The notes under the pieces were generated by a model that worked only from the letters and a program-made list of their open reading frames with translations, made no database searches and had not been told where the DNA came from. From Gemmata obscuriglobus (lineage in GTDB: Bacteria > Planctomycetota > Planctomycetia > Gemmatales > Gemmataceae): 32,000 nucleotides of DNA. Position 1 is the stretch's first letter. Each line of letters begins with the position of its first letter. Position numbers and translations under genes: made by a program. Shown here in pieces: positions 25,778-32,000 of this stretch. The stretch is from assembly GCF_008065095.1 (NCBI RefSeq), contig NZ_CP042911.1:5460001-5492000 (forward strand). The letters are read 5' to 3'.

Positions 25778-28372
25778 ATGTCCCGCATGATGCAGCAGTA
25801 CCACGACGCGAAGAACCAGCACCCGGGCATGATCGTCCTGTTCCGCAACGGCGACTTCTACGAACTGTTCGAGGACGACGCGGAACTGGGGTCGCGGGTG
25901 CTCGGCATCACGCTCACCAAGCGCGACGGCTCGATCCCGATGGCCGGGGTGCCGGTCCACAAGCTCGAACACTACCTCGGGCTGCTGCTCCGGGCCGGCC
26001 ACCGCGTCGCGGTGTGCGAGCAGATGGAGGACCCGGACCCCAAGAAGAAGATCATCCACCGCGAGGTGAACCGGATCGTCACCCCCGGTACGGTGACCGA
26101 CGACGGGTTGCTCGACCCCCGCGCGCCGAACCATCTTGTTGCCGTTGCGCCCGGCAAGCCCGGGTTCTTTGGCCTCGCGTGGGTGGATCTCTCCACCGGC
26201 CATTTTGCGGCTACCGACGTTCCGGCGCCGCGCCTCCAAGACGAACTGTCCCGGCTAAGTGCCGTCGAGTGCCTGTACGCCGAAGGGCTGACGAACGCCG
26301 TCTCGCAGGCGGCGGGCACGTACCTGCCGAAGAGTCGCGTGGCCCGTCCGGACTGGACGTTCGACCCGGCTACCGCGCTGGCGGCGCTCAAAACGCATTT
26401 CGCGGTCGGCACGCTCACCGGCTTCGGCTTCGACGACGCACAGTCATGCCTCGTCGCTGCGGGTGCGGTCGTGATCTACCTTCAGGAAACGCTCAAGGCG
26501 AGCCTCCAACACATCCGCCGGCTGCGCCCGCACCGCCCCGATGCCCTGCTCACCCTCGACGAGGTCACCCGGCGCAGCCTGGAGCTGACCCGCACCCTGC
26601 GCGACAACCAGCGCGACGGCTCCCTGCTCTCGGTGCTCGACCGGACCGTCACCCCGATGGGCGCCCGGCTCCTGCACGACAGCGTTCTGGCCCCCCTCAC
26701 GGACGCGACCGCAATCAGCGCCCGCCTTGATGCGGTGGAAGAACTTCTGAAGGATCACGCGCTCCGGCAGTCCGTGCGCGACCAGCTCGACGCGTGCTCC
26801 GACATGCAGCGCCTCACCACGCGCGTATCCACGGCGAAGGCGGGGCCGCGCGACCTGGCCGCGATCGCCCGCACCCTGCGCCACCTCCCCGCGGTGAAGG
26901 CCAAGCTCACCGGCCGGCGGTCGAAGCTGCTGCAAGACCTCGAAAAGCGACTCGAGCTGTGCCCCGACATCCGCGAGTTGCTGGATAAGGCGATTGAGGA
27001 CGATCCGCCGCACATCGCCAAAGAGGGCGGCGTGATCCGCCCCGGGTTCAGCGCCGAACTCGACGAGCTTCGCGCCCTCACCACAGACGGGAAGAACTGG
27101 ATCGCCCGCTACCAGGCGCAGGAGATCACACGCACGGGCATCGGCAGCCTGAAGGTCGGCTACAACGAGATCGACGGCTACTACCTCGAAATCACCAACG
27201 CGAACGAGACGAAAACGCCGCCGGAGTACAAGCACCAGAAGACGCTCAAGAACGCGAAGCGGTACTACACGCCGGCCCTCCGCGAGTACGAGGAGAAGGT
27301 CGTCACCGCGCAGGACAAGAGCCGCGCGCTGGAACTCCAGCTCTTCGTGACGCTGCGGGACCAAGTCGCGGTCCAGACGCCGCGGTTGCTGAACACCGCA
27401 GAGGTGCTCGCGGCGCTCGACATGCTGGCGGCGCTGGCGGAACTGGCGGCGGCTCGGAACTACGTGCGCCCGGCGTTCGTGGAGGAACCCGTTCTCGACA
27501 TTCGGGACGGCCGGCACCCGGTTCTTGACCAGATCCTGCCGCCTGGCACGTTCGTGCCCAACGACGTCGCGTTCGGCCCCGACGACGGCATGTTCTGGCT
27601 CGTCACCGGGCCGAACATGGCCGGCAAATCGACGTTCCTACGCCAGGCGGCGCTCATCACCTTGATGGCGCACGTCGGGAGCTTCGTACCCGCGAAGAGC
27701 GCGAAGGTGGGGCTGACCGACCGCATCTTCACCCGCGTCGGCGCGAGCGACGAGTTGAGCCGCGGGCAGTCCACGTTCATGGTGGAAATGACCGAAGCCG
27801 CCAACATCCTGAACAACGCGACGGCGCGGAGCCTGGTCATTCTCGACGAGATCGGCCGCGGGACGAGTACATACGACGGCGTTTCGCTGGCGTGGGCGAT
27901 GACCGAGTACCTGCACGACACGCTCGCGTGCCGCACACTGTTCGCGACGCACTACCACGAACTGGCTCAGCTCGCGGCGTCGCTGCCCCGGCTCCGGAAC
28001 TACAACGTGCTGGTGCGCGAGCTGGCCGACGAGATCGTCTTCTTGCACAAGATCGCGCCGGGGAACGCGGAGCGCAGCTACGGCATCCACGTCGCGCGGC
28101 TGGCGGGAGTTCCGGGGAGCGTACTCGCCCGCGCGACCGCCGTGCTCGGAACGCTGGAGAAAGGCCACGACCTGTCGAACGTGCCGGCAGCGCCCGTCGC
28201 CGCGCCCGATGTGACGAGACCTATCCCCCTACCGACCCCGGCGACACCGCCGCGGATCGAGCCGCCGAAGCCGAAGATCGTTCAGCCGCCCGAGGCGCCG
28301 CGGCGCAAGTCCAAGCCCCAAGCGGCGACCGGCCCGAGCCTGTTCGGGGACGGCGACGACGTGCCGTTCTGA
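25778..28372 (+). CDS. mutS: DNA mismatch repair protein MutS
   Basis: N-terminus MSRMMQQYHDAKNQHPGMIVLFRNGDFYELFEDDA (mismatch-binding domain, F-Y-E motif). Walker A GPNMAGKST. Also STFMVEMTE and ILDEIGRGTSTYDG motifs. The C-terminal tail is Pro-rich. Confidence 0.97.
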   Translation: MSRMMQQYHDAKNQHPGMIVLFRNGDFYELFEDDAELGSRVLGITLTKRDGSIPMAGVPVHKLEHYLGLLLRAGHRVAVCEQMEDPDPKKKIIHREVNRIVTPGTVTDDGLLDPRAPNHLVAVAPGKPGFFGLAWVDLSTGHFAATDVPAPRLQDELSRLSAVECLYAEGLTNAVSQAAGTYLPKSRVARPDWTFDPATALAALKTHFAVGTLTGFGFDDAQSCLVAAGAVVIYLQETLKASLQHIRRLRPHRPDALLTLDEVTRRSLELTRTLRDNQRDGSLLSVLDRTVTPMGARLLHDSVLAPLTDATAISARLDAVEELLKDHALRQSVRDQLDACSDMQRLTTRVSTAKAGPRDLAAIARTLRHLPAVKAKLTGRRSKLLQDLEKRLELCPDIRELLDKAIEDDPPHIAKEGGVIRPGFSAELDELRALTTDGKNWIARYQAQEITRTGIGSLKVGYNEIDGYYLEITNANETKTPPEYKHQKTLKNAKRYYTPALREYEEKVVTAQDKSRALELQLFVTLRDQVAVQTPRLLNTAEVLAALDMLAALAELAAARNYVRPAFVEEPVLDIRDGRHPVLDQILPPGTFVPNDVAFGPDDGMFWLVTGPNMAGKSTFLRQAALITLMAHVGSFVPAKSAKVGLTDRIFTRVGASDELSRGQSTFMVEMTEAANILNNATARSLVILDEIGRGTSTYDGVSLAWAMTEYLHDTLACRTLFATHYHELAQLAASLPRLRNYNVLVRELADEIVFLHKIAPGNAERSYGIHVARLAGVPGSVLARATAVLGTLEKGHDLSNVPAAPVAAPDVTRPIPLPTPATPPRIEPPKPKIVQPPEAPRRKSKPQAATGPSLFGDGDDVPF

Positions 28373-28647: not shown

Positions 28648-28755
28648 GGCGTGTGGACAGTTACCGTAGCAAGATCATAATGGATGCAATGTGAACGAAT
28701 GCGAGGGAGTTGCGCGCGGTTTTGTCGTACCGTGTCGCAACCCGTCGGTATTGTT

Positions 28756-28790
28756 TGGCCTTAGTACTACTCCGTTACTTCGCCACAACT
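28756..28790. repeat. Left arm of a ~35-bp imperfect inverted repeat
   Basis: The core CTTAGTACTACTCCGTTACTTCGCCACAACT (28760-28790) pairs with 29004-29034 with 2 mismatches in 31. The pairing extends 3 more bp after one mismatch. Confidence 0.8.
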
Positions 28791-28956
28791 AATTAAATTG
28801 TCGCGATTTATGGCGAGCTACACCTACAGGTCCGTGCCCCCGCAATGGGTTCAAATCCCAGCGATTCTGGCTAGTCCGTTCACGAGAGCAGCAAACATTC
28901 CGCCTTGGCAGTGAGCATTCCATTTGACTCAAGTCCAGATCCTACAAGATGTTCCG

Positions 28957-29256
28957 TCAAGGTGCATTCCAGAGGCGTGTGCATAACACGTCGTAAAATA
29001 AGCAGTTGTGGCGAGGTAACGGAGTAGTATTAAGCCCAGAGAATTCGTCCTCGGGGTAAAACAACTTCGATGATTGCTTGAGTCGCTGGCGAAACTCGCC
29101 GGTTGCCGACGCAAGTGCCTCCTTGAAGTTCTCGGCAAGTGCGGCATCAAGGAAGTGAGTTGCCACCTCTCGTACCCACAGCTCTTCGAGTTCCCGGTTC
29201 TCGCGAACGTTCGGAACCGCCACCAGTACGACGACCGCACAAGCTACGACATACAC
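28957..29256 (-). CDS. Hypothetical small membrane-anchored protein (99 aa); candidate gene cassette downstream of attC-like site 1
   Basis: GTG start at 29256 with GGGAGGG 7 nt upstream, 17 nt after the GCCGAAC/GTTCGGC core at 29273-29279. N-terminal TM helix (YVVACAVVVLVAV). G+C is visibly lower (~50% by eye) than the surrounding genome. The C-terminus runs into the inverted-repeat arm, so the 3' end is uncertain. Confidence 0.4.
   Translation of the reverse strand: MYVVACAVVVLVAVPNVRENRELEELWVREVATHFLDAALAENFKEALASATGEFRQRLKQSSKLFYPEDEFSGLNTTPLPRHNCLFYDVLCTRLWNAP
29004..29038. repeat. Right arm of the ~35-bp imperfect inverted repeat
   Basis: AGTTGTGGCGAGGTAACGGAGTAGTATTAAG (29004-29034) is the reverse complement of the left arm, apart from the 2 core mismatches noted for the left arm, and lies 213 bp from it. 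It falls inside the 3' part of the 28957..29256 ORF. Confidence 0.8.
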
Positions 29257-29272: not shown

Positions 29273-29363
29273 GCCGAACGTAAAGCTCACCTGCACCGCC
29301 ATCACACGATGAGCGGTGCGTCCCGAATCCGCGGGCGGTGTCAGGTGCAGCGCCGGGTTCGGC
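29273..29363 (-). other. attC-like site 1
   Basis: GCCGAAC-gtaaa-GCTCACCTGCACCGCC-(33 nt)-GGCGGTGTCAGGTGCAGC-gccgg-GTTCGGC. The 7-bp outer boxes are exact reverse complements. The 5-nt spacers are non-complementary. The inner stem has two unpaired bases (T, C) on the + strand 3' arm. Confidence 0.55.
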
Positions 29364-29818
29364 TCACTGACCTCCGCGGTTCCGGGCGACACGCGCCGCA
29401 CCGCGGCTCCGCGGAGCCCGTGCCACCGGTGCGGCCGGGCGGAGCACCCCCAACCCGATGCGCCGTGTCGCGACACATCGGAGGCCACCCACCACCGCCA
29501 CCCGCGGCGATGAGCCGCGCCCGCCACCCACGGGCGCCACGCGGAGCACCACCGACACGAACCGCCGTGTCCCCACCCGCGCCCGGCCACGCCCAACCAC
29601 ACCTCGCGGCGGCGAGCCGCGCCAGACCCGATCGGCACCACGCGGAGCGCCACCGAACCGACACGCCGTGTCCGCACCCGCCACCGGCCGCGCCCACCGC
29701 ACCTCGCGGCGACGAGCCGCGCCACACACCCACGGGCACCACGCGGAGCCCGACCCTCGGGATTCACCTTCGCGGACCACACGCCCACCGCCGCACGCGC
29801 GATCGAGCAACTCGGGTG

Positions 29819-29908
29819 GCCGAACAAATAGCTCACCTGCACCGCCAGGATGAAGTGCGCATGACAACGGTGGCCGATGGCGGTGTCAGGTGCAGCGCCG
29901 GGTTCGGC
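29819..29908 (-). other. attC-like site 2 (loop class B)
   Basis: GCCGAAC-aaata-GCTCACCTGCACCGCC-(32 nt: aggatgaagtgcgcatgacaacggtggccgat)-GGCGGTGTCAGGTGCAGC-gccgg-GTTCGGC. Confidence 0.55.
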
Positions 29909-30244
29909 TCGCTCACGTCCGCGCCGCGCATCCGCGGATGCCCGCGCCACCGATGCGGCCACGCGGAGCACCGCCGACCCGGAGCACCGTGTCGCCGCAC
30001 GTCGGAGGCCACCCACCACCCCCACTCGCGGCGACGAGCCGCGCCGACCACCGACCGGTGTTGGCGGAGCGCAACCGACCCGAACCGCCGTATCCCCACC
30101 CGCCGCCCGCCACGCCCAACCGCACCTCGCGGCGGTGAGCCGCGCCAGCGACCACCGGCACCACGCGGAGCCCGACCCGCGGGCGTCACCCACGCGGACC
30201 ACACGCACACCGCCACCGCACGCGCGCTCCAGAACGCGAGGGTG

Positions 30245-30335
30245 ACCGAACATAAAGCTCACCTGCACCGCCCCCTCCCAGGGAGCGATGCGTCACAAAC
30301 TCGCGGGCGGTGTCAGGTGCAGCGCCGGGTTCGGC
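30245..30335 (-). other. attC-like site 3
   Basis: ACCGAAC-ataaa-GCTCACCTGCACCGCC-(33 nt)-GGCGGTGTCAGGTGCAGC-gccgg-GTTCGGC. The outer box has one substitution (A for G). Confidence 0.5.
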
Positions 30336-30693
30336 TCGATGCCCTCGGCGGTTCCGAGGTGGCACGCTCAGCATCGCGGCTCCGCGGAAGCCCGCCCACC
30401 GTCGCGGCCGAGCGGAGCACCACCGACCCACCCGCCGTGTCCCGGCCCATTGGAGGCTGGCACCAACCGCACCTGGCGGCGACGAGCCGCGCCAACCACC
30501 AGCGGGCGCCACGCGGAGCACCACCGACCCGAACCACCGTGTCCCCACGCGCCGCCGGCCACGCGCACCCGCACCTCGCGGCGGCGAGCCGCGCCAGACA
30601 CGACCGGCACCCCGCGGAACCCGACACAAGGGTTTCACCACCGCGGACCACACGCCTCGCACCGCCGCACGCGCACTCATGCACGCGATGGTT

Positions 30694-30784
30694 GCCGAAC
30701 GAACAGCTCACCTGCACCGCCATCATACCGTCAGCGGTGCGTCACAAACCCGATGGCGGTGTCAGGTGCAGCGCCGGGTTCGGC
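30694..30784 (-). other. attC-like site 4
   Basis: GCCGAAC-gaaca-GCTCACCTGCACCGCC-(33 nt)-GGCGGTGTCAGGTGCAGC-gccgg-GTTCGGC. Confidence 0.55.
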
Positions 30785-31143
30785 TCGCTCACGTCCGCGG
30801 GTCCGGGGCACACGCCGAGCGCTGCGCATCCGCGGAAGCCCGCCCACCGGTGCGGCCACGCGGAGCACCGCCGACCCGGAGCACCGTGTCGCGACACATC
30901 GGAGGCCACCCACCCACCGCCACCCGCGGCGATGAGCCGCGCCCGCAACCGATCGGTCTCGGCGGAGCACTACCGACCCGAACCGCCGTGTCCCCACCCG
31001 CACCCCGGCCACGCCCAACCGCACCTCGCGGCGGTGAGCCGCGCCCGCGACCACCGGCACCACGCGGAGCCCGATGCGCGGGGGTCACCGTCGCGGACCA
31101 CACGCCCAGCTCCGCCGCACGCGCATTCATGCACGCTCGGGTT

Positions 31144-31235
31144 GCCGAACATACAGCTCACCTGCACCGCCATCATCGGATGAGCGGTGCGTCGCAATAT
31201 CGCATGGCGGTGTCAGGTGCAGCGCCGGGTTCGGC
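31144..31235 (-). other. attC-like site 5
   Basis: GCCGAAC-ataca-GCTCACCTGCACCGCC-(34 nt)-GGCGGTGTCAGGTGCAGC-gccgg-GTTCGGC. Confidence 0.55.
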
Positions 31236-31590
31236 TCGCTGACCTCGGCGGTTCCGGGGCACGCGCCCCGCGCCGCGCGTCCGCGGAGCCCGCGGCACCG
31301 GTGCGGCTCTGCGGAGCAGCACCGACCCGACGCGCCGTGTCGCGGCCCACTGGAGGCCACCCACCACCGCCCCTCGCGGCGATGAGCCGCGCCAGCCCCG
31401 ACCCGTATCAGCGAAGCCAACACCGATACGCACTATCGTGTCCCCATGCACCGCTGGCCATGCCCAACCGCACCTCGCGGCGGCGAGCCGCGCCCGCCAC
31501 AGACCGGCACCACGCGGAGCACCACACGCGCCGTTCACCCACGCGGACCACACGCCTACCGCCGCACGCGCACCCCGCGCCCTTCTGGTG

Positions 31591-31680
31591 GCCGAACAAT
31601 GAGCTCACCTGCACCGCCTGGGTGACGTGAGCACCACAACTATGGCCGATGGCGGTGTCAGGTGCAGCGCCGGGTTCGGC
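31591..31680 (-). other. attC-like site 6 (loop class B)
   Basis: GCCGAAC-aatga-GCTCACCTGCACCGCC-(32 nt: tgggtgacgtgagcaccacaactatggccgat)-GGCGGTGTCAGGTGCAGC-gccgg-GTTCGGC. It lies 8 nt downstream (minus strand) of the stop of the 31689..>32000 ORF. Confidence 0.55.
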
Positions 31681-31688
31681 CTCGGCCC

Positions 31689-32000
31689 TCACGCGATCAA
31701 CCGGTGCCGTTGGCTCACTATCTGCTCGAACACAGACCAGCCATGCCCCTCGACGAGTCGGGTGAGCGCCTCGGCCGATGTCCGCACGGGATCATAGCGG
31801 ACCTGGACCCACACCACGGTGTACACGCCTCCTGTGACGGCCGCCAACTTGTCCCCATCGCACAGTTCGTCCGCCAACTGGCCACGGCTCTTAATGACCG
31901 TCAGAGAGTACCGAACAGCGTCGCCGTGGGACTCGGCGAACGCTGCGAACAGGAACTCAGCCCCGGCGAGGCTCGCAGCGAGGTCGCCAAGGTTCCGAAC
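31689..32000 (-). CDS. Hypothetical protein, 5'-partial (open to the window edge); candidate cassette ORF preceding attC-like site 6
   Basis: I translated the minus-strand frame by hand and it stays open from 32000 to the stop at 31689: ...VRNLGDLAASLAGAEFLFAAFAESHGDAVRYSLTVIKSRGQLADELCDGDKLAAVTGGVYTVVWVQVRYDPVRTSAEALTRLVEGHGWSVFEQIVSQRHRLIA. The composition looks coding and is unlike the repeat array. I recognise no family, and the C-terminus is not that of a tyrosine recombinase. Confidence 0.5.
   Translation of the reverse strand, partial: VRNLGDLAASLAGAEFLFAAFAESHGDAVRYSLTVIKSRGQLADELCDGDKLAAVTGGVYTVVWVQVRYDPVRTSAEALTRLVEGHGWSVFEQIVSQRHRLIA

What the first reader, a model, noticed from the sequence alone, without database searches (positions are those of the whole stretch)
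29273..31680. Six evenly spaced hairpins with the full architecture of integron attC sites
All six ~90-bp sites read, on the + strand: GCCGAAC, a 5-nt variable spacer, GCTCACCTGCACCGCC, a 32-34 nt variable centre, GGCGGTGTCAGGTGCAGC, GCCGG, GTTCGGC.
- The outer 7-mers are exact reverse complements. They are one position off the attC R-box consensus (RYYYAAC / GTTRRRY).
- The 5-nt spacers never pair, like the unpaired central spacer of attC.
- The inner 16-bp stem carries two unpaired bases, the first after exactly 3 bp. This is where the extrahelical base sits in L'' of attC-aadA7 (GTT-C-AAGC versus GCTTAAC).
- The centre is variable, like the variable terminal structure.
- The extra bases are on the 3' arm of the + strand. 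By the attC rule, + is therefore the recombinogenic bottom strand and the minus strand is the cassette coding strand.
No integron is obvious from gene content, and the host looks like a planctomycete.
Basis: partly seen in the sequence, partly recalled or inferred. Interest (0 to 1): 0.85.

Follow-up and report, generated by a model that had tools for sequence, protein, structure and literature searches.

The report
Integron attC sites in Gemmata obscuriglobus
The six hairpins are genuine integron recombination (attC) sites, the last six of a very large gene-cassette store (at least 189 sites in three arrays) in the planctomycete Gemmata obscuriglobus; this is a known kind of element in a little-studied host, with no integrase gene next to any array start examined.

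Summary
The window comes from Gemmata obscuriglobus. Its six 90-92 nt hairpins have identical stems and fold as described.

Evidence that they are attC sites:
- A covariance model trained only on other attC sites finds exactly these six. They score 68-71 bits (E about 1e-14) on the minus strand, against 17-25 bits on the plus strand.
- The HMM part of a published Planctomycetes attC model also picks only these six.
- In five related contigs the same hairpin family lies just downstream of true integron integrases. Two full-length ones score 419-449 bits on TIGR02249 (cut-off 265).
- Duplicated cassette blocks begin and end at the predicted G|TT crossover in 5 of 6 edges.

The six sites are the tail of a 44-site array that ends at mutS. 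The genome holds at least 189 co-oriented attC sites in at least three arrays. No intI was found in the roughly 124 kb examined, which includes all three array starts, so these are CALIN-type arrays.

The even spacing arises because all five cassettes between the six sites belong to one non-coding family of about 350 nt. It makes up 41% of cassettes and is found only in Gemmata. This parallels the non-coding cassette families of Vibrio.

Verdict: new member of a known kind, of moderate interest.

The parts
29273..29363 (-). attC site 1, the last attC of the array. On the minus strand it reads R'' GCCGAAC, spacer CCGGC, L'' GCT[G]CACCTG[A]CACCGCC, variable centre, L' GGCGGTGCAGGTGAGC, 5-nt spacer, R' GTTCGGC. 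The predicted crossover G|TT lies between + coordinates 29279 and 29278.
   Evidence: CM R1 69.7 bits, E 2.2e-14 on the minus strand, versus 21.6 bits on the plus strand. Published Planctomycetes attC HMM hit, positions 2-102. Fold -28.5 kcal/mol, z -4.3.
29819..29908 (-). attC site 2
   Evidence: CM R1 68.3 bits, E 4.6e-14. HMM hit. Fold z -3.7.
30245..30335 (-). attC site 3. Its R' is GTTCGGT, so the + strand starts ACCGAAC.
   Evidence: CM R1 69.4 bits, E 2.5e-14. HMM hit. Fold z -4.1. Sequence read.
30694..30784 (-). attC site 4
   Evidence: CM R1 71.1 bits, E 9.9e-15, alignment shown. HMM hit. Fold z -5.3.
31144..31235 (-). attC site 5
   Evidence: CM R1 71.0 bits, E 1.1e-14. HMM hit. Fold z -4.1.
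31591..31680 (-). attC site 6
   Evidence: CM R1 68.9 bits, E 3.4e-14. HMM hit. Fold z -3.3.
29364..29818 (-). Body of a non-coding (ORF-less) cassette, long form with one extra 101-nt sub-repeat
   Evidence: Member of the paralogous family, unit c20 = L001 9439-9893. TRF finds a 101-nt period, 2.6 copies. The family is not coding.
29909..30244 (-). Body of a non-coding cassette (336 nt)
   Evidence: Unit c19 = L001 9013-9348; 88% identical to c17.
30336..30693 (-). Body of a non-coding cassette (358 nt)
   Evidence: Unit c18 = L001 8564-8921.
30785..31143 (-). Body of a non-coding cassette (359 nt)
   Evidence: Unit c17 = L001 8114-8472. RNA fold z +1.73 on the cassette strand and +1.20 on the other strand.
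31236..31590 (-). Body of a non-coding cassette (355 nt)
   Evidence: Unit c16 = L001 7667-8021.
28957..29256 (-). ORF of the terminal cassette (99 aa, no family match). It starts 17 nt after attC site 1. No recognisable attC follows it.
   Evidence: ORF list. Called gene in GCA_000171775.1. No Pfam hit. No attC-model hit between 28373 and 29272.
31689..32000 (-). 3' part of a protein-coding cassette ORF (113 aa). Its start lies just beyond the window end, at the equivalent of window position 32030. Its attC is site 6.
   Evidence: Called gene L001 7227-7568. ORF list. No Pfam hit.
25778..28372 (+). mutS, the chromosomal gene that bounds the distal end of the array (context only)
   Evidence: 864-aa ORF. 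Pfam MutS_I-V on the called gene.

Best explanation
The six hairpins are attC recombination sites of an integron-type gene-cassette array. They are the last 6 of 44 sites in a 21-kb array (CP025958.1 2,509,788-2,531,101) that ends beside mutS in Gemmata obscuriglobus.

Shown here:
- They belong to the same attC family as sites lying directly downstream of genuine integron integrases in related Gemmataceae and other Planctomycetota.
- The minus strand is the cassette (top) strand.
- Cassettes have moved between arrays as units whose edges fall in the R' box.
- The five units between the six sites are non-coding cassettes of one family found only in Gemmata.

Inferred from the established integron mechanism:
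- When single-stranded, the bottom (window +) strand folds so that R'/R'' and L'/L'' pair. The two bulged bases (C and T on that strand) and the unpaired spacers mark it as the substrate.
- An IntI tyrosine recombinase binds and cuts at AA|C (G|TT on the top strand), then exchanges one strand with attI or another attC.
- Replication resolves the junction, so whole cassettes are excised as circles and re-inserted.

No intI lies at any of the three array starts examined in this genome. The arrays are therefore CALIN-type. Any present-day mobility would need an integrase encoded elsewhere or supplied in trans.
For: 1. Structure-aware membership. Covariance model R1 was built from 30 attC sites that are not the Gemmata hairpin type, taken from IntI-linked and metagenomic arrays. 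It returns exactly the six sites, end to end, at 68-71 bits and E 1e-14 to 5e-14 on the minus strand. The plus strand scores 17-25 bits, and the best unrelated hit has E = 0.29.
2. The HMM of the published Planctomycetes attC model (PMC8352920, supplementary file 3) gives six hits in 32 kb, all of them these sites, on the minus strand, at positions 2 to 99-102.
3. Covariation on the independent sites:
   - 98.8% paired, against 21-41% when the partner columns are slid.
   - 7 pairs with compensatory changes.
   - Score 0.256 against 0.065 in shuffles, with 0 of 500 shuffles reaching it.
   - In a separate set of 186 distinct sites, the bulged G is present in 185.
4. Integrase linkage.
   - IntI homologues lie 1-1.5 kb upstream of the hairpin family and co-oriented with it in L028, L017, L004, L005 and L048.
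   - The L028 and L017 proteins score 449 and 419 bits on TIGR02249, cut-off 265.
   - The L028 protein aligns over nearly the whole of the VchIntIA structure 2A3V at E 5e-89, through the IntI-specific segment.
   - The best database relatives that carry a name are all called integron integrase.
5. Array architecture.
   - L001 has 21 co-oriented sites in 10 kb, with small ORFs on the predicted strand starting 10-26 nt after each attC.
   - The genome has 44, at least 128 and at least 17 sites in three arrays, with no full-length hit on the opposite strand.
6. Crossover position. In three duplicated cassette blocks, 5 of 6 identity edges fall in the 7-nt R' box. The upstream variable spacer always stays with the upstream cassette, and block order differs between arrays.
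Against: - No intI or remnant (tblastn, E <= 0.1) was found in about 124 kb of G. obscuriglobus array sequence and flanks, including the starts of arrays A, B and C.
- No G. obscuriglobus chromosome copy appeared among the 120 best IntI relatives.
- The R box is 6/7 to RYYYAAC.
- The first bulged base on the bottom strand is C, whereas the class 1 paradigm has G (the paradigm is from my own knowledge).
- Each hit to the published HMM is individually weak (E 0.09-0.8).
- R1's training sites are homologues that I selected with that HMM, so the test shows family membership rather than full independence.
- One duplicate edge lies inside the variable centre, not at R'.
- No recombination was observed directly.
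Confidence: 0.93

Rival explanations
1. Orphan or fossil arrays. The sites are attC by descent, but this genome has no working integrase. The arrays are now shaped only by RecA-type homologous recombination, unequal crossing-over and gene conversion between the 90-nt near-identical repeats. Under this reading gene conversion, not IntI selection, keeps the stems identical.
For: - No intI at three array starts, or anywhere in about 124 kb.
- The start of array A abuts a transposase-like HTH gene, and IS copies sit inside array B and in the L043 array stretch.
- One duplicate edge lies inside an attC centre.
- Boucher 2006 (PMC1382264) proposes gene conversion as a homogeniser of 59-be sites.
Against: - 5 of 6 duplicate edges fall in the 7-nt R' box, although the identical stems of 30 and 16 nt offer far more target for homologous exchange. 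My rough estimate of the chance probability is about 2e-4.
- Adjacent non-coding units are only 78-88% identical and are not each other's nearest relatives. This argues against recent local tandem duplication.
- The rest of the 9-Mb genome was not searched for intI.
Confidence: 0.3
2. A generic REP/BIME-like or other palindromic repeat family unrelated to integrons, which merely resembles attC.
For: GC-rich imperfect palindromes are common in bacterial intergenic DNA. The R box is one position off the attC consensus.
Against: - No copy occurs in the other 29 kb of the window.
- Every copy fetched lies in a co-oriented array with cassette-sized spacing.
- The family sits next to true integron integrases in five contigs.
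- The attC covariance models hit at E about 1e-14.
Confidence: 0.02
3. A tandem array of a structured non-coding RNA gene or a 450-bp satellite, in which the hairpin is part of the RNA or of the repeat unit.
For: TRF reports a 449-nt tandem repeat, 3.9 copies at 78% identity. The units contain invariant short hairpins.
Against: - No Rfam family matches, even at E <= 5.
- RNAalifold covariation terms are +0.72 and -0.11, with only 1-2 compensatory pairs.
- The units fold no better than shuffles, z +1.7 and +1.2.
- The same hairpin also flanks dozens of unrelated protein-coding cassettes, so it is not part of the 350-nt unit.
Confidence: 0.02
4. Protein-coding repeats. GenBank calls a 624-aa gene across the region.
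For: Long stop-free frames exist on both strands: 624 aa on + and 373 aa on -. The 624-aa ORF is a called gene in the draft assembly.
Against: - 96% of indels between copies are not multiples of three.
- Variability is equal at all three codon phases (0.150-0.156).
- The open frame differs from copy to copy.
- The region is 74-75% G+C within the array, so stop codons are rare by chance.
Confidence: 0.01

Closest known systems
Sedentary chromosomal integron arrays of Vibrio (the V. cholerae super-integron with VCR attC sites; V. vulnificus)
   Same: - Very large chromosomal arrays: at least 189 sites here, against 173-219 cassettes in Vibrio (PMC1382264).
- Highly homogeneous, lineage-specific attC sites.
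- One small, mostly unannotated ORF per cassette.
- Many paralogous cassettes.
- A large fraction of non-coding cassettes.
   Different: - The host is a planctomycete.
- The cassettes are split into at least three arrays, about 260 kb and about 2 Mb apart.
- No intI lies at the array starts examined.
- The attC stems are 100% identical in about 90% of sites.
- In relatives, the integrase is co-oriented with the cassettes rather than divergent.
CALIN elements: clusters of attC sites lacking an integron-integrase (Cury et al. 2016, PMC4889954)
   Same: At least two co-oriented attC sites within 4 kb and no intI nearby. This is the operational definition that arrays A, B and C meet.
   Different: Size. 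83% of CALINs in that survey had fewer than six sites and the largest had 114. Array B alone has at least 128.
Planctomycetes attC family and the 'inverted integrase' integrons (Ghaly et al. 2021, PMC8352920; Treponema-type integrons)
   Same: - Box layout and bulged G match the published Planctomycetes attC model. The model reads GCCUAAC-5 nt-GUU[G]CAgC...GCUGAaC-6 nt-GUUAGGC.
- intI is co-oriented with the cassettes in all five linked relatives. This is the arrangement Cury et al. call the inverted integron-integrase group.
   Different: - The Gemmata sites carry G at R'' position 4, which has about 5% probability in the published model.
- They score only 5-8 bits on its sequence-only HMM.
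- Gemmata is not named in the held text or supplements.
Paralogous non-coding cassette families of Vibrio arrays (Boucher et al. 2006, PMC1382264); ORF-less cassettes with promoter or sRNA function (PMC6557892)
   Same: - Many copies per array: 77 here, 45 in V. vulnificus CMCP6.
- About 80% identity between species.
- No homologues outside the genus.
- No codon-like substitution pattern.
   Different: - Unrelated sequence.
- Internal 101-nt sub-repeats.
- Strong G excess on the cassette strand (45-50% G, 5-11% A).
- No sigma-70-like promoter match.
- Function untested.
REP/BIME palindromic elements
   Same: GC-rich imperfect palindromes present in many copies.
   Different: REP elements are dispersed through intergenic regions in both orientations and are not tied to an integrase. 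These sites occur only in co-oriented cassette arrays and fit attC models.

Membership tests
integron attC site (59-base element) | Outer inverted repeats R''/R' with the conserved AAC...GTT core (consensus RYYYAAC / GTTRRRY) | tested here: met
   GCCGAAC ... GTTCGGC on the minus strand in all six sites (site 3 has R' GTTCGGT). The AAC/GTT core is invariant in 186 of 186 related sites. The match to the degenerate consensus is 6/7, with G at position 4. The published Planctomycetes model allows G there at about 5%.
integron attC site (59-base element) | Inner imperfect repeats L''/L' with extrahelical base(s) on the R''-L'' arm, which set strand choice | tested here: met
   GCT[G]CACCTG[A]CACCGCC pairs with GGCGGTGCAGGTGAGC. 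The bulges come after 3 bp and after 6 more bp. Both bulged bases are invariant in 30 independent sites while the stem between them covaries. The bulged G is present in 185 of 186 sites.
integron attC site (59-base element) | Unpaired central spacers of about 5-6 nt between the R and L boxes, and a variable terminal structure | tested here: met
   The spacers are 5 nt on each side and are unpaired in nearly all predicted folds. The centre is 32-34 nt in these six sites. Related sites range from 70 to 114 nt in total length.
integron attC site (59-base element) | Structure conserved through compensatory change across sites | tested here: met
   This cannot be tested on the six sites themselves because their stems are identical. 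On 30 independent family members: 98.8% paired, 7 compensatory pairs, 60 cells against 21 +/- 3 in shuffles, 0 of 500 shuffles reach the score, and slid controls give 21-41%.
integron attC site (59-base element) | Recognised by an attC covariance model | tested here: met
   CM R1, trained without the Gemmata type, gives 68-71 bits and E about 1e-14, full length, on the minus strand. The HMM half of the published Planctomycetes model gives six hits, all of them these sites. IntegronFinder's own attC model could not be run.
integron attC site (59-base element) | Co-oriented clusters at cassette spacing, with cassette ORFs on the top strand | tested here: met
   L001 has 21 sites, all on one strand, with ORFs on that strand starting 10-26 nt after an attC. 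The three arrays hold 44, 128 and 17 sites with no full-length opposite-strand hit.
integron attC site (59-base element) | Recombined by IntI with crossover at G|TT in R' | tested here: inconclusive
   The evidence is indirect only. 5 of 6 edges of duplicated cassette blocks fall in R', and one falls inside the variable centre. A recombination assay cannot be done with these tools.
complete integron (intI + attI + Pc + cassettes) | An integron integrase gene adjacent to the array | tested here: not met
   In G. obscuriglobus there is no tblastn hit at E <= 0.1 in about 124 kb, including the starts of arrays A, B and C. The feature is met in relatives L028, L017, L004, L005 and L048. TIGR02249 scores for L028 and L017 are 449 and 419 bits against a cut-off of 265. 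The rest of the genome was not searched.
complete integron (intI + attI + Pc + cassettes) | attI site and Pc promoter at the start of the array | not tested
   No attI consensus is known for this lineage. The sigma-70 scan found nothing inside the window's array. The array starts were not scanned.
CALIN (cluster of attC sites lacking integron-integrase) | At least 2 attC sites within 4 kb on one strand and no intI nearby | tested here: met
   Arrays A, B and C. The definition is from PMC4889954.
REP/BIME-type dispersed palindromes | Copies dispersed singly or in small mosaics through intergenic regions, in both orientations | tested here: not met
   There are no copies in window 1-29272. All copies in the fetched loci (69 in all) are co-oriented within their locus.
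Rfam structured RNA families | Match to any curated covariance model | tested here: not met
   No match at gathering thresholds. At E <= 5 the only hit is a spurious mir-2006 match at 17.7 bits against a gathering score of 90.

The most novel reading that the evidence does not exclude
The 350-nt cassette family may be more than inert filler. Its features: non-coding, G-skewed, poorly structured, 77 copies (41% of all cassettes), internal 101-nt repeats, subfamilies shared between Gemmata species.

It could be a cassette-level parasite that exploits the integrase. Alternatively it could be a module that serves the array, for example by supplying transcription or by modulating attC folding or recombination.

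The host also keeps at least 189 attC sites with essentially identical stems in at least three arrays that have no linked integrase. That would imply a trans-acting or periodically acquired IntI, or an unrecognised homogenising mechanism.
Probability: 0.25. Interest if true: 0.6.

Novelty: new member of a known kind. Interest (0 to 1): 0.42.

Why it matters
- Large chromosomal integrons have been studied almost entirely in Vibrio and a few other Proteobacteria. This gives a cassette reservoir of comparable size in G. obscuriglobus, a widely studied planctomycete, with a sharply defined attC family.
- Closely related integrases are available from neighbouring genomes, so recombination tests are feasible.
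- The system bears on three open questions: what non-coding cassettes do, how attC sites stay homogeneous, and how integrase-less arrays persist.
- On the practical side, dozens of 'hypothetical proteins' called across the non-coding units and attC sites in the public annotations are probably artefacts.

Tried and rejected
Hypotheses rejected:
- Coding repeats. Rejected on the indel spectrum, the lack of codon periodicity and the shifting frames.
- Structured RNA for the inter-site units. Rejected: no Rfam hit, no covariation on either strand, and folding no better than shuffles.
- Promoter or terminator content. The consensus scans found none inside the array. This is weak evidence for a planctomycete.
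- A tRNA near 28850, suggested by a T-arm-like GGGTTCAAATCCC. ARAGORN and Rfam found nothing.

Searches that found nothing or were blocked:
- Metagenome scan for the unit's core motif: no hits.
- Literature searches for a prior description of a Gemmata integron: none found in the held library.
- The search for intI in G. obscuriglobus. I walked along CP025958.1 through cluster-member ids and reached the starts of arrays A, B and C without finding one.
- The genome-contig scan did not return G. obscuriglobus itself, so that collection could not be used for a genome-wide map.

My own errors:
- Two of my scripts mis-mapped alignment columns. Their numbers are void and are replaced.
Full report
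**1. The observation**

Six sites lie at window 29273-29363, 29819-29908, 30245-30335, 30694-30784, 31144-31235 and 31591-31680. They share identical arms.
- The 16-nt arm GCTCACCTGCACCGCC occurs six times exactly. With up to three mismatches allowed, shuffles give about one match.
- Each site folds as single-stranded DNA into the predicted hairpin: a 7-bp outer stem, unpaired 5-nt spacers, and a 16-bp inner stem with two bulged bases. Energies are -25 to -29 kcal/mol and z-scores are -3.3 to -5.3.

- Site 3 begins ACCGAAC.
- The 'variable' centres fall into two related classes.
- The DNA between the sites is itself repeated, with a 449-nt period and 101-nt sub-repeats. This explains the even spacing.

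**2. Source and true extent**

A look-up of the 99-aa ORF next to site 1 identified Gemmata obscuriglobus UQM 2246 (ABGO01000149.1). The mutS look-up placed the window at about 2.53-2.56 Mb of the complete genome CP025958.1, in reverse orientation.

Just beyond the window's right edge the same hairpin continues. L001 holds 21 co-oriented sites in 10 kb. Small, real-looking ORFs lie between some of them on the window's minus strand. Each starts 10-26 nt after a hairpin.

**3. Are they attC sites?**

Five independent lines agree.

(a) Published model. Ghaly et al. 2021 (PMC8352920) give a Planctomycetes attC model as text.
- Its consensus is GCCUAAC, 5 nt, GUU[G]CAgC ... GCUGAaC, 6 nt, GUUAGGC.
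- This has the same box layout and the same bulged G as our minus-strand reading: GCCGAAC, CCGGC, GCT[G]CACC ... GGTGAGC, 5 nt, GTTCGGC.
- I rebuilt its HMM half and ran it with nhmmer. It gives six hits in the window. All are these sites, on the minus strand, covering positions 2 to 99-102.
- Each hit is weak alone (E 0.09-0.8), because an HMM has no base-pairing term.

(b) My own structure-aware model. I collected attC sites that are not the Gemmata hairpin type, from IntI-linked and metagenomic arrays, and aligned 30 of them.
- Their stems are 98.8% paired, against 21-41% when the partner columns are slid.
- Seven pairs show compensatory changes, and no shuffle in 500 reaches the observed score.
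- Examples: CAGCAG/CTGCTG, CACCGG/CCGGTG, CACCTG/CAGGTG.
- Both bulged bases never change.
- The covariance model built from them finds exactly the six window sites, end to end, at 68-71 bits and E 1e-14 to 5e-14 on the minus strand.
- The plus strand scores 17-25 bits, and the best unrelated hit has E = 0.29.

(c) Integrase linkage.
- The exact hairpin occurs in 41 stretches from other Gemmata and Gemmataceae genomes, and in 12 metagenome contigs.
- In five contigs (L028, L017, L004, L005, L048) an IntI homologue lies 1-1.5 kb upstream of the first site, co-oriented with the cassettes.
- The two full-length proteins tested score 449 and 419 bits on NCBIfam TIGR02249 'integron integrase', cut-off 265.
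- The L028 protein aligns over nearly the whole of the VchIntIA crystal structure 2A3V at E 5e-89, through the IntI-specific segment.
- The nearest database relatives that carry a name are all called integron integrase.
- Co-orientation of intI and cassettes is the 'inverted integrase' arrangement described before (PMC4889954).

(d) Crossover position.
- Identical cassettes occur in different array contexts.
- In three duplicated blocks, identity begins exactly at G·TTCGGC, while the upstream attC centre and its 5-nt spacer differ.
- In two of the three blocks identity then runs through the block's own last attC, including its spacer, and stops just after GTTCGGC.
- Five of six edges therefore fall in the 7-nt R' box, where IntI cuts. 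Homologous recombination would favour the 30-nt and 16-nt identical stems. My rough estimate of the chance probability is about 2e-4.
- One edge lies inside a variable centre. This suggests some gene conversion as well.
- The order of the two blocks differs between arrays, which indicates cassette shuffling.

(e) Distribution. No copy occurs elsewhere in the window, and every fetched copy lies in a co-oriented array.

**4. Scale in G. obscuriglobus**

I walked along CP025958.1.

| Array | Position in CP025958.1 | attC sites | Span | Upstream of the array start |
|---|---|---|---|---|
| A (the window's) | 2,509,788-2,531,101, ending at mutS | 44 | 21.3 kb | transposase-like HTH gene |
| B | from 2,791,196 to at least 2,859,304, right end open | at least 128 | at least 68 kb | LPS-core genes, a PP-loop ATPase-like gene, zinc-ribbon genes |
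| C | near 0.42-0.43 Mb, right end open | at least 17 | at least 10.7 kb | cREC_REC, Phage_Mu_F and CHAT genes |

- The total is at least 189 sites, with no full-length hit on the opposite strand.
- This is comparable to the Vibrio super-integrons, which have 173-219 cassettes (PMC1382264).
- tblastn with a Gemmataceae IntI found nothing at E <= 0.1 in about 124 kb, including all three array starts.
- By IntegronFinder's definition these are CALINs. Array B exceeds the largest CALIN in the 2016 survey, which had 114 sites.
- An intI elsewhere in the 9-Mb genome is not excluded.

**5. The units between the six sites**

All five cassettes bounded by the six sites, 15 of 20 inter-site segments in L001, and 77 of 186 inter-site segments genome-wide (41%) belong to one family. 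Units are 330-360 nt long, or about 455 nt with an extra sub-repeat.
- Copies are 74-88% identical to each other.
- They have 45-50% G and 5-11% A on the cassette strand.
- The family also occurs in G. algarum and in Gemmata sp. SMAG_U3706 at about 80% identity. Nearest relatives are often in the other species.
- It is absent from the metagenome arrays.
- It is not coding.
- It matches no Rfam family.
- It shows no covariation on either strand.
- It folds no better than shuffles.
- It has no sigma-70-like promoter or intrinsic terminator match.
- Its core motif occurs only inside the arrays.

Adjacent copies are not each other's closest relatives. This argues against recent local duplication.

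The pattern matches what Boucher et al. 2006 described for non-coding cassettes in Vibrio. Those are many-copy families confined to the genus and more than 80% identical between species. The authors left open whether they are selfish or regulatory. The function here is likewise unknown.

**6. Comparison, novelty and verdict**

- Integrons and attC models for Planctomycetes are already published (PMC4889954, PMC8352920).
- I found no description of the Gemmata arrays in the held literature.
- The finding is therefore a new member of a known kind.
- It is notable for its size, the near-perfect identity of its attC stems, the absence of a linked integrase, and the dominance of one non-coding cassette family.
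Its interest score was too high.

Noticed in passing
window 29364-31590 (five units); L001, L043, L044, L059, L061-L068: One family of non-coding cassettes of about 350 nt makes up 41% of cassettes (77 of 186). It has 101-nt internal repeats and is 45-50% G on the cassette strand. It contains an invariant hairpin, CGCGGC-UCRYC-GCCGCG. It is shared with G. algarum and Gemmata sp. SMAG_U3706 but is absent from other planctomycete arrays.
   Followed up: yes
window 28750-28812 and 28982-29044 (core arms 28761-28790 and 29003-29030): An inverted repeat of 30-60 nt with arms about 170-210 nt apart overlaps the 3' end of the terminal cassette ORF. It lies in a low-GC stretch (52%, against about 69% elsewhere). 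It could be a MITE-like insertion that removed the last attC. No other copy was found in any fetched locus.
   Followed up: partly
window 28846-28862: A T-arm-like motif, GGGTTCAAATCCC, occurs between mutS and the array. ARAGORN and Rfam find no tRNA there. It may be a tRNA-gene fragment or a chance match.
   Followed up: partly
window 29309-31183 (+); L001 8074-9948; CP025958.1 locus tags such as C1280_10195, _11510, _11745, _01930: Public annotations call 'hypothetical proteins', including a 624-aa one, across the non-coding units and attC sites. These are very probably artefacts of stop-poor, high-GC DNA.
   Followed up: partly
L043, L044, L059, L061, L063, L067, L068 (cassette ORFs): Cassette proteins that have a family match are dominated by immunity-type domains: SMI1/KNR4-SUKH (many copies), Barstar and Imm1. 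There are also two ribosomal protein S21 paralogues, DUF6959, DUF3108-like, TPR and an alpha/beta hydrolase. Most cassette proteins have no match.
   Followed up: no
L043 1895-3052; L065 7132-8127 (= L067 16525-17520); L061 1-293: IS transposase genes (DDE_Tnp_1/DDE_5) are inserted within array B and in the L043 array stretch. A transposase-like HTH_23/32/33 gene abuts the start of array A. This is a possible route by which an integrase was separated or lost.
   Followed up: no
L005 (CAZKIQ010000141.1, labelled uncultured Alcaligenaceae): A contig binned as a betaproteobacterium carries an IntI fragment and attC sites of this planctomycete family, including one exact Gemmata-type hairpin. This is either mis-binning or cross-phylum transfer. 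The Gemmata-type IntI is also about 70% identical to IntIs named from Thiobacillus, Gallionella and Propionivibrio.
   Followed up: no
L004 1204-2058: The intI next to the array in Gemmata sp. SMAG_U3706 lacks about the first 50 codons relative to its relatives. It is possibly a decaying integrase.
   Followed up: no
L001 2106-2196, 4353-4442, 6223-6335: About 10% of the attC sites in the G. obscuriglobus arrays are of divergent types. Those in L001 score higher on the published Planctomycetes model (13.9-18.6 bits) than the dominant identical-stem type (4.5-11.8 bits). This is consistent with cassettes imported from other hosts.
   Followed up: partly
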